Part shown: positions 41,972 to 47,212 of the stretch, piece after piece
Numbering within the stretch: position 1 is the first letter of the stretch
Layout: every line of letters starts with the position of its first letter
DNA from: Escherichia coli
GTDB taxonomy: Bacteria; Pseudomonadota; Gammaproteobacteria; Enterobacterales; Enterobacteriaceae
Length of the DNA: 64,000 bases
Assembly (NCBI RefSeq): GCF_965641715.1
Contig: NZ_OZ282453.1
Strand: one strand, 5' to 3'
The notes under the pieces: model-generated
What the model saw: the letters and a program-made list of their open reading frames with translations, nothing else
Told to the model about the DNA's origin: nothing
Databases searched by the model: none
Made by a program: the position numbers and the translations under genes

Positions 41972-44900
41972 ATGGCTTCGACAAATGCGCATCAAATAAA
42001 AAATAATGATCAAAACTCTTTATGTGGTCTGGGTGACAAAATACGCCGCCTGACCGCCGGAGTTTGTTTATTTACACAAATTTTTTTCCCCGTCATGGCG
42101 ACGGCACAAAATGTGGTACATGCTAAACCTCAGACGACAGTTTCATCTGCCCCCCCTCTAATAGAAAATAATACGGTGCCTTACACGCTTGGTGCGCTGG
42201 AATCAGCGCAAAGCGTTGCTGATCGATTCGGTATTTCACTGGAGGAGCTTCGTCGTCTTAATCAGTTCCGTACTTTTGCTCGCGGCTTTGATAACGTGCG
42301 CCAGGGTGAGGAACTGGATGTTCCGGCAACAACCTCGCAGAAAAGCCATGAGCAACAAAATGCCATACCGCCTGCGAATGGCGAAAACACGCTGGAGAAT
42401 CAAATAGCCAGCACCTCGCAGCGAGTTGGCACTCTGCTTTCACAAGATATGAATAGTGAGCAGGCCAGCGGCATGGCGCGTGGTTGGGCGTCTTCAGAAG
42501 CCTCTGGCGCGATGACTGATTGGTTAAATAACTTTGGCACTGCGAAAATCTCTCTGGGTGTGGATGAAGATTTTAGCCTGAAAAATTCGCAATTCGACTT
42601 CCTGCATCCGTGGTATGACACACCTGATTATCTGCTCTTCAGCCAGCATACCCTTCACCGAACAGACGATCGTACCCAGATCAACACCGGTTTGGGCTGG
42701 CGTCATTTCACCTCCAGCTGGATGTCAGGCATCAACCTGTTTTTTGACCACGACCTGAGCCGCTATCACTCCCGCGCAGGGCTTGGCGCAGAATACTGGC
42801 GTGATTATCTGAAGTTGAGCAGCAACGCTTATATCGGCCTGACCGGCTGGCGTAGCGCACCAGAATTGGATAACGACTTCGAAGCCCGCCCGGCCAACGG
42901 CTGGGATTTACGCGCGGAAGGCTGGTTACCTGCCTGGCCACAACTGGGGGGAAAACTGGTCTATGAACAATACTATGGCGATGAAGTGGCGCTGTTTGAC
43001 AAGAACGATCGCCAAAGTAATCCCCATGCTATTACCGCGGGCCTCAACTATACCCCCTTCCCGCTTCTGACTCTCAGTGCGGAACAGCGTCAGGGGAAGC
43101 AAGGTGAAAATGACACACGTTTTGCCGTTGATCTGACCTGGCAACCCAGCAGTTCAATGCAGAAACAGCTTAACCCGGACGAAGTGGCCGGACGGCGCAG
43201 TCTGGCCGGTAGTCGTTATGACCTGATTGATCGCAACAACAACATCGTTCTGGAATATCGCAAGAAAGAGCTGATTCGCCTGAGTCTGCTGGATCCGGTG
43301 AAAGGAAAGTCTGGAGAAATAAAACCGCTGGTTTCCTCGATACAGACCAAATATGCCCTGAAAGGCTATAACATCGAAGCCGCTGCGCTGGAAGCTGCCG
43401 GAGGTAAAGTCAGCACGTCTGGAAAAGATATCACGGTCACGCTGCCAGGTTACCGCTTCACTAACACTCCAGAAACCGATAATACATGGTCGATAGACGT
43501 TACCGCCGAGGATGTAAAAGGTAACCTGTCACGTCATGAACAAAGCATGGTCGTCATTCAGGCTCCGACATTAAGCCAGAAAGATTCTCTGTTATCCGTT
43601 AATCCGCTAACCGTGGCTGCAGATAAAAAATCGACTACCACATTGACCGTTACTGCACACGATTCCGATGGAACCCCGGTGCCGGGGCTGGCGCTGCAAA
43701 CCCGCAGTGAAGGCGTTCAGGATATCACCCTGTCTGACTGGACAGATAACGGTGATGGTAGTTACACACAGATACTGACCGCCGGAACGACATCAGGTTC
43801 AGTAACACTGACGCCGCAAATTAACGGTGAGAGTGCGGTAAAAGAATCCATCGTCGTTAATATCGTCCCTGTTGTCTCATCCCGCGACCATTCATCAATA
43901 ACAATTGATAACGTATCGTATTATGCCGGAGACGACATCAAGGTTAGGGTGGAACTGAAAGACGAAAGTAATCAACCGGTTGCATATCAAAAAGAGGAAT
44001 TGGTAAAAGCCGTTACTGTCGAAAACAGCAAACCTGGCGCCACGATTGTCTGGCACGAAGAGCAGCCGGGGGTTTATACCGCGAATTATCCGGCCCATAA
44101 GCAAGGGACTGCACTAAGGGCACAACTTAGCCTTCACAACTGGAATGCTCCGCTGCAATCGCATATTTATAACATTGAGGCAAACCAGAATAAGGCTCGC
44201 GTCGCCACATTATCAGCGACAAATAATGACGTTTACGCCGATAAAAAGACATTTAATACCCTCACTATCAACGTCACTGATGAGAGTGATAATCCCCTGA
44301 TAAATCATCAGGTCACCTTTAAGAATGAAAAAGGAAGCGCGGAATTTGTCGAACCGCCGCAGCAAAATACGGATGCATATGGTGTTGCCACAATCAACAT
44401 GGTAAGTCAGGTTGCGGAAGAAAATACGATTAGCGCCACGCTGCCAAATGGTTTCTCACAACGGATAATTGCGAAATTCGTTAGCGATTCGAGTACGCCA
44501 AAATTCAAACAACTGGTTGCCGATCCAGATACCATTATTGCTGGCAACAGCCAGGGCAGTACTCTGACCGCCATCGTCACAGACTTTCATAACAACCCGT
44601 TAAAAGATATGAAAGTGAATTTTGTGGCACCTGGTGGCTCGCAACTGGACAACACGACCGCCACAACAGACCAGTCCGGTATTGTGCGGGTGCACCTGAC
44701 CAGTTCAAAAGCTGGTAGCTATTCCGTCGATGCCTCGCTTGAGGTGGATAAAAATATTCACCAGTCGGTCACGATCACCGTGGTCCCAAACAGGGAACAA
44801 TCGGTAATGACCTTGAATGCCGGGTCGGGCAGTGCGATCGCTAACAATACAAATACCGTTACCCTGACTGCCAGTGTGAAAGATGTTTATGGACACCCGT

Positions 44901-47212: not shown

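What the first reader, a model, noticed from the sequence alone, without database searches (positions are those of the whole stretch)
41972..47212. 1746-aa invasin/intimin-like adhesin between yjiJ and kptA
The ORF has the hallmarks of an inverse autotransporter: a LysM-like periplasmic segment, an aromatic-rich beta-barrel region, more than ten Ig-like repeats and a cysteine-containing C-terminal lectin-like domain. I do not recall a gene of this size at this position in K-12, so it is probably accessory. The upstream 210 bp is very AT-rich, consistent with H-NS silencing typical of such adhesins.
Basis: partly seen in the sequence, partly recalled or inferred. Interest (0 to 1): 0.5.

Follow-up and report, generated by a model that had tools for sequence, protein, structure and literature searches.

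The report
Known E. coli adhesin gene iatD

Summary
The ORF is real: 41972..47212, + strand, 1746 aa, between yjiJ and kptA. It is the known inverse autotransporter (type Ve) gene iatD.

- **Identity.** RefSeq annotates the same gene at the same site as "inverse autotransporter IatD". The exact protein is in NCBI under that name. It is 97.6% identical, with no indels, to EcSMS35_4876, the IatD that Goh et al. 2019 cloned, showed on the cell surface and found to drive biofilm formation.
- **Distribution.** The gene is accessory: 636 of 5426 complete E. coli genomes carry it, and 4750 have the K-12-type empty junction.
- **H-NS.** Silencing is untested. The upstream 210 bp is 34.3% GC, only the fourth lowest of 24 intergenic gaps in the window.
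- **Haplotype.** iatD sits in a ~10.5-kb two-state block with an espX6-like gene and yjiK/yjiJ alleles only ~80% identical to K-12.
- **O157:H7.** Most O157:H7 genomes carry iatD frameshifted by C7 to C8 in a poly-C tract. That tract is in frame here.

Verdict: already known, low interest.

The parts
41972..47212 (+). iatD coding sequence, 1746 aa, intact
   Evidence: ORF. RefSeq annotates 'inverse autotransporter IatD' at the same site. 97.6% aa identity to SMS-3-5 IatD and 99.1% to strain 88-3493, with no indels. The exact protein is in NCBI as IatD.
41762..41971 (+). Upstream intergenic region holding the presumed promoter, 34.3% GC, with a Shine-Dalgarno-like GGAAGG at 41961-41966
   Evidence: GC values. 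Sequence read directly. Only weak promoter-like matches, no more than chance. One 9-of-10 match to the H-NS motif at 41764.
41972..42106 (+). Extended N-terminal signal peptide, residues 1-45 (KIRRL, hydrophobic core, ATA then QN)
   Evidence: Read from the translation. Residues 20-46 are 63% identical to the K-12 YeeJ leader. No signal-peptide predictor was run.
42150..42156 (+). C7 homopolymer in codons 60-62; C8 gives the O157:H7 frameshift allele
   Evidence: Alignment with O157:H7 strain 1130. C8 allele in 285 genomes. C7 on the O157 background in 22 genomes. It is the only G/C run of 7 or more in the window.
42170..42334 (+). Periplasmic LysM domain, residues 67-121, divergent with a longer loop before the last strand
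   Evidence: Pfam LysM E 0.026, below cut-off. 11 of 14 aligned homologues hit LysM. AlphaFold2 beta-alpha-alpha-beta core with pLDDT above 90. Foldseek hits are almost all LysM domains, including intimin 2MPW. The K-12 YeeJ LysM, shown to bind peptidoglycan, differs at only 5 positions across IatD residues 68-118.
42413..43261 (+). Inverse-autotransporter beta-barrel translocator, residues 148-430
   Evidence: Pfam IAT_beta E 6e-108. Invasin barrel 4E1T E 1.5e-81 and intimin barrel 4E1S E 1.1e-65. 87% identical to the YeeJ barrel.
43262..46588 (+). Passenger stalk, residues 431-1539: 9 clear Big_1/Invasin_D3 Ig-like domains plus two divergent ~100-aa slots (431-545, 640-747)
   Evidence: Pfam. 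Self-HMM repeats start at residues 548, 754, 855, 955, 1059, 1159, 1252, 1355 and 1456. Residues 431-545 weakly match Ig-like RTX-adhesin repeats, E 1.6e-5. Residues 640-747 are inconclusive. No DNA tandem repeats lie inside iatD.
46589..46891 (+). Invasin-D4-like Ig domain, residues 1540-1640
   Evidence: Pfam Invasin_D4 28.4 bits against a cut-off of 27. Modelled with the tip at pLDDT 94.7. Matches invasin 1CWV.
46892..47209 (+). C-type-lectin-like tip domain, residues 1641-1746, with Cys1660 and Cys1742
   Evidence: phmmer match to invasin D4-D5, E 3.9e-6, with the first cysteine aligned. Both cysteines conserved in 42 tip homologues. Foldseek: invasin 1CWV E 1.5e-12 (TM 0.78), intimin 1F00 E 3.7e-7, and snake-venom C-type lectin-like proteins.
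47230..47259 (.). 13-bp-stem hairpin between the convergent iatD and kptA genes; terminator-like with a weak U-tract
   Evidence: strand folding gives -22.6 kcal/mol, z -5.7. The consensus terminator scan did not call it.
47284..47309 (.). REP-like palindrome GCCTGATGCGCTGCGCTTATCAGGCC
   Evidence: Read from the sequence. The REP assignment is from my own knowledge of the E. coli REP consensus and was not tested.
36816..47367 (.). Divergent two-state haplotype block containing iatD: espX6-like gene (37154-39406), yjiK* (39673-40515), yjiJ* (40583-41761) and iatD
   Evidence: Window against K-12: flanks 97.8% and 98.5% identical, yjiK*-yjiJ* 80.8%, with sharp breakpoints. The divergent allele is at least 95% identical in 636 genomes and 80-90% in 4740, with none between. 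The same count carries iatD, and 635 carry the espX6-like gene.

Best explanation
This is an intact allele of iatD, a known accessory E. coli gene for a type Ve (inverse autotransporter) adhesin.

**Likely mechanism**
1. A long Sec signal peptide (residues 1-45) takes the protein to the periplasm.
2. A divergent LysM domain (about residues 67-121) binds peptidoglycan and stabilises or dimerises the protein.
3. Residues about 148-430 form the 12-stranded IAT beta-barrel in the outer membrane.
4. The C-terminal passenger passes through the barrel as a hairpin and folds outside into a stalk of about 11 Big_1-type Ig-like domains.
5. The stalk carries an invasin-like D4 plus C-type-lectin-like tip, braced by a Cys1660-Cys1742 disulfide.

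When the gene is expressed, the protein sits on the cell surface and promotes biofilm formation. Its natural ligand and its native regulation are unknown.

**Shown by experiment on the 97.6%-identical SMS-3-5 orthologue:** expression of the full-length protein, surface exposure, and biofilm formation on overexpression in K-12 flu-. The same work found no autoaggregation and no binding to extracellular-matrix proteins.

**Shown here by computation:** orthology, position in the genome, and every domain assignment.

**Inferred from the family:** peptidoglycan binding (from YeeJ and intimin), BAM-dependent hairpin secretion, the disulfide, and silencing under laboratory conditions.
For: - **Orthology.** RefSeq annotates iatD at the same yjiJ-kptA site in all top hits. 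The window protein is 97.6% identical to EcSMS35_4876 with the same length. The exact sequence is named IatD in NCBI.
- **Experiments.** Goh et al. 2019 (PMC6714894).
- **Domains.** IAT_beta, Big_1 and Invasin_D3. Invasin and intimin barrels in the PDB. LysM. YeeJ's LysM binds peptidoglycan (PMC5595812); the IatD LysM region as a whole is 71% identical to YeeJ's, and the core (residues 68-118) differs at only 5 positions. D4-lectin tip.
- **Accessory status.**
Against: - Nothing contradicts the assignment.
- No NCBIfam model passes its curated cut-off. The best is the IatC N-terminal model at 1125 bits against a cut-off of 2400, so the name rests on near-identity to the prototype, not on an HMM.
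- The LysM in IatD itself is below Pfam's cut-off.
- Two of the twelve ~100-aa passenger slots lack significant Ig-domain matches.
- Function is known only from overexpression. No native expression, receptor or in-host role has been shown.
- Loss of the gene by frameshift in most O157:H7 genomes shows it is dispensable in at least one successful lineage.
Confidence: 0.93

Rival explanations
1. The gene is intact but functionally cryptic. It would be transcriptionally silenced, by H-NS or another repressor, under almost all conditions, and on its way to loss. It would then be a decaying relic and not a working adhesin.
For: - The upstream region is AT-rich at 34.3% GC and has one 9-of-10 match to the H-NS nucleation motif.
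- The close paralogue YeeJ is barely expressed in laboratory culture (PMC5595812).
- FdeC regulation by H-NS is cited in Goh et al.'s reference list.
- 285 O157:H7-type genomes carry a frameshifted copy.
- 4750 genomes lack the gene.
Against: - The ORF is kept at exactly 1746 aa, with 97.6-99.1% identity and no indels, across distant strains.
- O55:H7 and some O157 strains keep it in frame.
- The upstream GC is not exceptional for an intergenic gap, ranking 4th lowest of 24.
- No expression data exist for iatD in either direction.
Confidence: 0.3
2. It is a true invasin-type protein whose D4-lectin tip binds beta-1 integrins and mediates entry into host cells, like Yersinia invasin.
For: - The tip model's best structural match is invasin 1CWV (E 1.5e-12, TM 0.78).
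- Residues 1255-1713 align to invasin D1-D5.
Against: - In the alignment, invasin's key integrin-binding Asp911 (my own knowledge of the invasin literature) faces Asn in IatD (CHAKN).
- Sequence identity to invasin in the tip is only 24%.
- Overexpressed IatD showed no adhesion to extracellular-matrix proteins (PMC6714894).
Confidence: 0.05
3. It is simply a YeeJ allele or a recent YeeJ duplicate, not a separate adhesin.
For: - The N-terminal 443 residues are 79% identical to a YeeJ-type protein.
- Against K-12 YeeJ, the barrel is 87% and the first Ig domain 83% identical.
Against: - The locus differs: yjiJ-kptA here, against asnT-yeeJ in K-12.
- Both genes coexist in SMS-3-5 (PMC6714894).
- Passenger identity falls to 35-59%, and to 36% in the lectin tip.
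- The lengths differ: 1746 aa against 2339 aa.
Confidence: 0.03

Closest known systems
IatD of E. coli SMS-3-5 (EcSMS35_4876; Goh et al. 2019, mSphere, PMC6714894)
   Same: Same gene. The length is the same (5241 bp, 1746 aa), the yjiJ-kptA position is the same, and identity is 97.6% at the protein level and 97.7% at the DNA level with no indels. The predicted architecture is the same: signal peptide, LysM, barrel, Big_1 repeats and C-type lectin.
   Different: There are 42 amino-acid substitutions spread along the protein. This allele has an uninterrupted C7 tract where SMS-3-5 has CCGTCCCC.
ECs5290 'putative invasin', S-loop 288 of E. coli O157:H7 Sakai (Ogura et al. 2007, PMC2323221)
   Same: The gene description and its place in the Sakai locus-tag order (yjiM = ECs5298, espX6 = ECs5295) fit iatD. 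I infer the equivalence; the Sakai sequence was not fetched. The O157:H7 copy I did align (strain 1130) is 98.9% identical in DNA to the window.
   Different: Typical O157:H7 copies have C8 instead of C7 at window 42150-42156. The frame breaks, with a stop at codon 66, and RefSeq marks the gene as a frameshifted pseudogene. The copy in this window is intact.
YeeJ of E. coli K-12 (Martinez-Gil et al. 2017, PMC5595812)
   Same: Closest paralogue. It has the same architecture. Identity is 87% in the barrel, 83% in the first Ig domain and 71% in the LysM region. It also promotes biofilm without known receptor binding and is poorly expressed in the laboratory.
   Different: It lies at a different locus, is longer (2339 aa, 13 Big_1 domains), and its passenger is 35-59% and its lectin tip 36% identical.
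Invasin of Yersinia pseudotuberculosis (PDB 1CWV passenger, 4E1T barrel)
   Same: The barrel matches at E 1.5e-81. The last five passenger domains align to D1-D5. The D4-D5 superdomain fold matches (TM 0.78), and the cysteine positions are conserved.
   Different: IatD has about twice as many Ig domains and also a LysM domain (from my own knowledge, invasin has none). The tip is only 24% identical. The position aligned with Asp911 is Asn. No integrin or matrix binding has been shown.
Intimin (Eae) of EPEC/EHEC
   Same: Type Ve architecture with LysM, barrel, Ig domains and a lectin-like tip. Matches: barrel 4E1S at E 1.1e-65, tip 1F00 at E 3.7e-7, and the intimin LysM 2MPW among the fold hits.
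   Different: The NCBIfam intimin model scores 357 bits against a cut-off of 1400. Pfam Intimin_C is not matched. The gene is not in the LEE and has no adjacent tir.

Membership tests
Inverse autotransporters (type Ve secretion; intimin/invasin family) | IAT beta-barrel domain (PF11924) placed N-terminal to the passenger | tested here: met
   Pfam IAT_beta at residues 148-423, E 6e-108, 361 bits against a cut-off of 22.3. Invasin barrel 4E1T E 1.5e-81 and intimin barrel 4E1S E 1.1e-65.
Inverse autotransporters (type Ve secretion; intimin/invasin family) | C-terminal passenger built of bacterial Ig-like (Big_1 / Invasin_D3) domains | tested here: met
   Big_1 E 2.8e-122 in 8 stretches and Invasin_D3 E 1.6e-88 in 9 stretches. 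Nine repeats by self-HMM.
Inverse autotransporters (type Ve secretion; intimin/invasin family) | N-terminal Sec signal peptide | tested here: inconclusive
   The translation shows a basic n-region, a hydrophobic core and an A-T-A cleavage motif. It is similar to the YeeJ leader. No dedicated predictor was available.
Inverse autotransporters (type Ve secretion; intimin/invasin family) | Passenger exposed on the cell surface | not testable with these tools
   Shown by immunofluorescence for the 97.6%-identical SMS-3-5 protein (PMC6714894). Not shown for this allele.
LysM-bearing subgroup of inverse autotransporters (intimin, YeeJ, IatC, IatD) | [quoted passage not shown] | tested here: met
   Pfam LysM is below cut-off in IatD itself (E 0.026). 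However, 11 of 14 aligned homologues hit LysM (best E 3.6e-6). The AlphaFold2 core has a beta-alpha-alpha-beta topology at pLDDT above 90. The fold hits are LysM domains, with TM to target up to 0.82.
IatD orthologue group (E. coli) | Near-identity in sequence and length to the prototype EcSMS35_4876 | tested here: met
   97.6% aa identity, 1746 aa in both, no indels. Goh et al. report more than 98% identity among their IatD sequences, so this allele is slightly more distant from SMS-3-5 than that figure. It is 99.1% identical to the copy in strain 88-3493.
IatD orthologue group (E. coli) | Conserved chromosomal position between yjiJ and kptA | tested here: met
   Goh et al. state that the position is conserved.
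IatD orthologue group (E. coli) | NCBIfam equivalog model passing its curated cut-off | tested here: not met
   No IatD-specific model appeared. The best hit was the IatC N-terminal model at 1125 bits against 2400. RefSeq's name must come from another rule, so this does not weaken the orthology.
Invasin (integrin-binding) proper | D4-D5 superdomain with a C-type-lectin-like D5 and a disulfide | tested here: met
   Invasin_D4 at 28.4 bits against 27. Model pLDDT 94.7. 1CWV E 1.5e-12, TM 0.78. Both cysteines conserved.
Invasin (integrin-binding) proper | Conserved integrin-binding aspartate (Asp911 of Y. pseudotuberculosis invasin; my own knowledge) | tested here: not met
   In the phmmer alignment, the residue four positions after the aligned cysteine is Asn in IatD (CHAKN) and Asp in invasin (CQGSD). 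An Asp follows immediately, so a one-residue shift cannot be excluded.
Intimin | Passes the NCBIfam intimin model or Pfam Intimin_C; LEE and Tir context | tested here: not met
   intimin_all scores 357 bits against a cut-off of 1400. There is no Intimin_C hit. The neighbours are yjiJ and kptA, not LEE genes.

The most novel reading that the evidence does not exclude
The C7 tract in codons 60-62 (window 42150-42156) could act as a slipped-strand on/off switch for IatD, making iatD a contingency locus. The 'off' (C8) state would predominate in typical O157:H7, and 'on' (C7) states would be found in O55:H7, early O157 and this strain.

Separately, the ~10.5-kb block (espX6-like, yjiK*, yjiJ*, iatD) could be an ancient introgressed or balanced haplotype whose genes work together.

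The evidence does not exclude the switch reading but favours a single inherited frameshift. The C7 genomes on the O157 background include O55:H7 strains and several strains that, from my own knowledge, branch early in the O157 lineage.
Probability: 0.08. Interest if true: 0.45.

Novelty: already known. Interest (0 to 1): 0.14.

Why it matters
For the scan, it matters little. The gene has had a name, a paper, antisera and a phenotype since 2019. It was listed as a Sakai-specific 'putative invasin' in a 2007 paper.

What is still open about IatD:
- the ligand of its lectin-like tip;
- the conditions and regulators that turn the gene on;
- why it travels in a sharply bounded two-state haplotype with a type III effector gene;
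- why typical O157:H7 lost it.

Two by-products of this check could help anyone working on E. coli adhesin repertoires or O157 evolution. One is the perfectly matching counts of the divergent yjiK/yjiJ alleles and iatD. The other is the C7-to-C8 frameshift that separates most O157:H7 from O55:H7.

Tried and rejected
- **Outgroup scan.** I scanned the species-representative genome collection with a degenerate DNA pattern for the tip peptide GAYYxLNNDNF, hoping to find IatD or YeeJ tips in other species and learn which haplotype is ancestral. It found only one chance hit, in a Nanosynbacter MAG.
- **Full-length homologue search.** It returned only 99%-identical E. coli IatD entries. This was useful for naming but useless for building diverse alignments. 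I used the 50%-representative search of the tip instead.
- **Rfam.** A scan of 36000-48500 found no known RNA family.
- **Promoter and terminator scan.** It found no more sites than shuffled sequence and missed the strong hairpin after iatD.
- **Pfam on isolated fragments.** Nothing for residues 431-545 or for the lectin tip, and only a weak Invasin_D3 hit for 640-747. PDB sequence searches for those slots were weak or inconclusive.
- **Literature by O157 locus tag.** My first guesses were wrong: ECs5298 is yjiM. The second search found ECs5290.
- **Considered and rejected.** A YeeJ allele: the locus and tip differ. Intimin: model scores are far below cut-off and there is no LEE context. A simple insertion of iatD alone: the neighbouring yjiK and yjiJ are also replaced.
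Full report
**Observation.** The window holds a single ORF at 41972..47212 on the + strand, with an ATG start and 1746 codons plus stop. A GGAAGG Shine-Dalgarno-like motif lies 5 nt upstream of the ATG. Upstream is a 392-aa MFS_4 transporter, yjiJ (40583..41761). Downstream and convergent is a Tpt1/KptA-family gene. The 210-bp gap before the ORF is 34.3% GC, against 49.6% for the window and 49.1% for the gene. Every factual element of the finding is therefore present at the stated coordinates.

**Identity.** A megablast of 41700-47400 against 5426 complete E. coli genomes found full-length matches in 636 genomes. All listed hits were annotated 'iatD: inverse autotransporter IatD' and flanked by yjiJ and kptA. 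The exact protein exists in NCBI as 'inverse autotransporter IatD [Escherichia coli]'.

The name comes from Goh et al. 2019 (mSphere, PMC6714894). They defined iatD as EcSMS35_4876 (5241 bp). They cloned it, detected the full-length protein and showed it on the cell surface by immunofluorescence. Overexpression in a K-12 flu mutant gave strong biofilm, with no autoaggregation and no binding to extracellular-matrix proteins. They found a complete gene in 6% of 126 genomes and in 10% of ECOR strains.

I fetched the SMS-3-5 locus. The window protein is 97.6% identical to it (42 substitutions, no indels) and 99.1% identical to the copy in strain 88-3493. In O157:H7 Sakai the gene was listed in a 2007 paper as ECs5290, 'putative invasin', in the Sakai-specific S-loop 288 (PMC2323221). 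The neighbouring EspX6 is ECs5295. I infer that ECs5290 is iatD from the description and the locus-tag order; I did not fetch the Sakai sequence.

**Anatomy**
- **Barrel.** Pfam gives IAT_beta at residues 148-423 (E 6e-108), Big_1 in 8 stretches, Invasin_D3 in 9 stretches and one Big_3_5. PDB sequence search matches the invasin barrel 4E1T (E 1.5e-81) and the intimin barrel 4E1S. It also aligns residues 1255-1713 to invasin D1-D5.
- **Ig-like chain.** An HMM iterated on the protein itself finds nine clear repeats with a ~100-aa period, starting at residues 548, 754, 855, 955, 1059, 1159, 1252, 1355 and 1456. Invasin_D4 passes its cut-off when residues 1539-1643 are scanned alone. Two further ~100-aa slots fit the period. 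Residues 431-545 weakly match Ig-like RTX-adhesin repeats (E 1.6e-5). Residues 640-747 remain inconclusive. The count is therefore 10 firm and up to 12 Ig-like domains. There are no DNA-level tandem repeats inside iatD.
- **LysM.** Pfam LysM scores only 14.9 bits (E 0.026; cut-off 20.9) over residues 79-99. I aligned the region with 13 diverse homologous IAT N-termini taken from the representative search. Of the 14 aligned sequences, 11 hit Pfam LysM (best E 3.6e-6). An AlphaFold2 model built on that alignment has a beta-alpha-alpha-beta core at residues 67-121 with pLDDT above 90; the rest of the fragment is low-confidence. Foldseek returns almost only LysM domains for it, including MltD, chitinase LysMs (TM to target about 0.8) and the intimin LysM 2MPW. 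Across IatD residues 68-118 the K-12 YeeJ sequence differs at only 5 positions, and the YeeJ LysM was shown experimentally to bind peptidoglycan (PMC5595812).
- **Tip.** Residues 1640-1746 have no Pfam match. phmmer aligns the last 220 residues to invasin D4-D5 (E 3.9e-6) with the first cysteine in register. A search of 1.84 billion representatives found only 268 clusters with this tip module. The nearest non-IatD relatives, at 46-50% identity, include YeeJ-type proteins. In a 42-sequence alignment, Cys1742 is invariant and Cys1660 is at least 90% conserved. The AlphaFold2 model (pLDDT 94.7, pTM 0.87) matches invasin 1CWV best (E 1.5e-12, TM 0.78, rmsd 2.5 A). Next come intimin 1F00 and classical C-type-lectin-like snake-venom proteins. 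The position aligned with invasin's integrin-binding Asp911 (my own knowledge) is Asn in IatD. Integrin binding should therefore not be assumed.

**Relation to paralogues.** IatD is closest to YeeJ. Against K-12 YeeJ, the barrel is 87% identical, the first Ig domain 83% and the LysM region 71%. Identity then falls to 35-59% along the passenger and to 36% in the lectin domain. The locus differs, and SMS-3-5 carries both genes, so these are distinct paralogues. NCBIfam's best model is the IatC N-terminal domain, well below cut-off. The intimin, SinH and YchO models also fail their cut-offs.

**Accessory status and the surrounding haplotype.** K-12 MG1655 has only 12 bp between the stop codons of kptA and yjiJ. 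That empty junction is present in 4750 of 5426 genomes, against 636 with iatD.

The difference is not a simple insertion. Compared with K-12, the window is 97.8% identical up to about 36815 and 98.5% identical from about 47368. Between those points, yjiK and yjiJ are only 80.8% identical, evenly along their length (78-82% nt, 84-90% aa). Both transitions are sharp. Besides iatD, a second gene absent from K-12 sits in the block: a 750-aa pentapeptide-repeat ORF (37154-39406). RefSeq names its O157:H7 counterpart the T3SS effector EspX6, and it is 90% identical to the JEONG-1266 EspX6 protein.

The divergent yjiK/yjiJ allele is at least 95% identical in 636 genomes and 80-90% identical in 4740, with none in between. 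The espX6-like gene is found in 635 genomes. The equal counts point to one ~10.5-kb two-state haplotype (about 36816-47367). So do the five genomes inspected, which all carry the four genes together: the window, 88-3493, SMS-3-5, O157:H7 1130 and JEONG-1266. That the counts are the same set of genomes is an inference.

The right breakpoint falls at the kptA stop codon, so kptA here (47336-47920) has ten extra C-terminal codons. About 20% DNA divergence is far above normal within-species divergence. This suggests that one of the two haplotypes was imported from a diverged lineage, or that both are very old. My one outgroup scan failed, so the direction is unknown.

**The O157:H7 pseudogene.** In O157:H7 strain 1130, RefSeq marks iatD as frameshifted. 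The only length difference from the window is C8 instead of C7 at window 42150-42156 (codons 60-62), which gives a stop at codon 66. The C8 allele with the O157-type flanking SNPs occurs in 285 genomes. The C7 version of the same background occurs in 22. Those 22 include O55:H7 strains, 493/89, LSU61 and TT12A, which from my own knowledge branch early in the O157 lineage. They also include some other O157:H7 strains such as JEONG-1266, where iatD is annotated intact. SMS-3-5 has an interrupted tract, CCGTCCCC.

The pattern looks mostly like one inherited frameshift. Repeated slippage is not excluded. The tract is the only G/C run of 7 or more in the 64-kb window. Goh et al. do not mention a frameshift, O157 or H-NS in connection with iatD. 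Their lower prevalence figure (6% 'complete gene') is consistent with O157:H7 copies having been excluded; this is my inference.

**Regulation.** Nothing here tests H-NS. The upstream gap is AT-rich but ranks only 4th lowest of 24 intergenic gaps (mean 43% GC). It has one 9-of-10 match to the H-NS nucleation motif at 41764. Promoter-like matches are no more frequent than in shuffled sequence, and no Rfam family matches. Downstream, a 13-bp-stem hairpin (47230-47259, -22.6 kcal/mol, z -5.7) and a REP-like palindrome (47284-47309) separate iatD from kptA.

**Verdict.** The feature is an already known, named and partly characterised gene. Interest is low. The haplotype structure and the poly-C frameshift are modest additions I did not find stated in the papers I read.

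Noticed in passing
window 37154-39406 (+): A 750-aa pentapeptide-repeat ORF, absent from K-12. RefSeq annotates its O157:H7 counterpart as the T3SS effector EspX6, and it is 90% aa identical to the JEONG-1266 EspX6 (727 aa). It occurs in 635 of 5426 genomes. It is intact here but has an internal stop in O157:H7 strain 1130.
   Followed up: partly
window 38650-38752 and 39079-39313: In-frame DNA tandem repeats inside the espX6-like gene: 9- and 18-bp units, and a 24-bp unit in 9.8 copies. They probably explain its length variation between strains, from 657 to 750 aa.
   Followed up: no
window 39673-41761 (+): The yjiK (SdiA-regulated domain) and yjiJ (MFS) alleles are only 78-82% nt and 84-90% aa identical to K-12, while the flanking genes are at least 97.8% identical. 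Across E. coli the allele is strictly two-state: 636 genomes at 95% or more, 4740 at 80-90%, none between.
   Followed up: yes
window 42150-42156: C7 homopolymer in iatD codons 60-62, the only G/C run of 7 or more in the window. C8 at this site is the frameshift that inactivates iatD in 285 O157:H7-type genomes. On the O157-type sequence background, 22 genomes keep C7; they include O55:H7 strains and several O157 strains such as 493/89, LSU61 and JEONG-1266.
   Followed up: yes
window 47336-47920 (-): kptA carries ten extra C-terminal codons ([10 protein letters not shown]) compared with K-12, because the haplotype breakpoint lies at its stop codon. Strain 88-3493 stops one codon short of the K-12 length, and JEONG-1266 kptA is annotated as frameshifted.
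   Followed up: partly
window 47230-47259 and 47284-47309: A strong hairpin (-22.6 kcal/mol, z -5.7) and a REP-like palindrome lie between the convergent iatD and kptA genes. The consensus terminator scan missed the hairpin because its U-tract is short.
   Followed up: partly
L003 (E. coli SMS-3-5) 2154-22331: Between iraD and hypT, SMS-3-5 carries a ~20-kb insert (ptsP-like, dhaKL, gcl-hyi, ibeA, nhaC and others) that is absent from 88-3493 and K-12. From my own knowledge this is the GimA/ibeA island. It shows that this chromosomal neighbourhood is a hot spot of variation.
   Followed up: no
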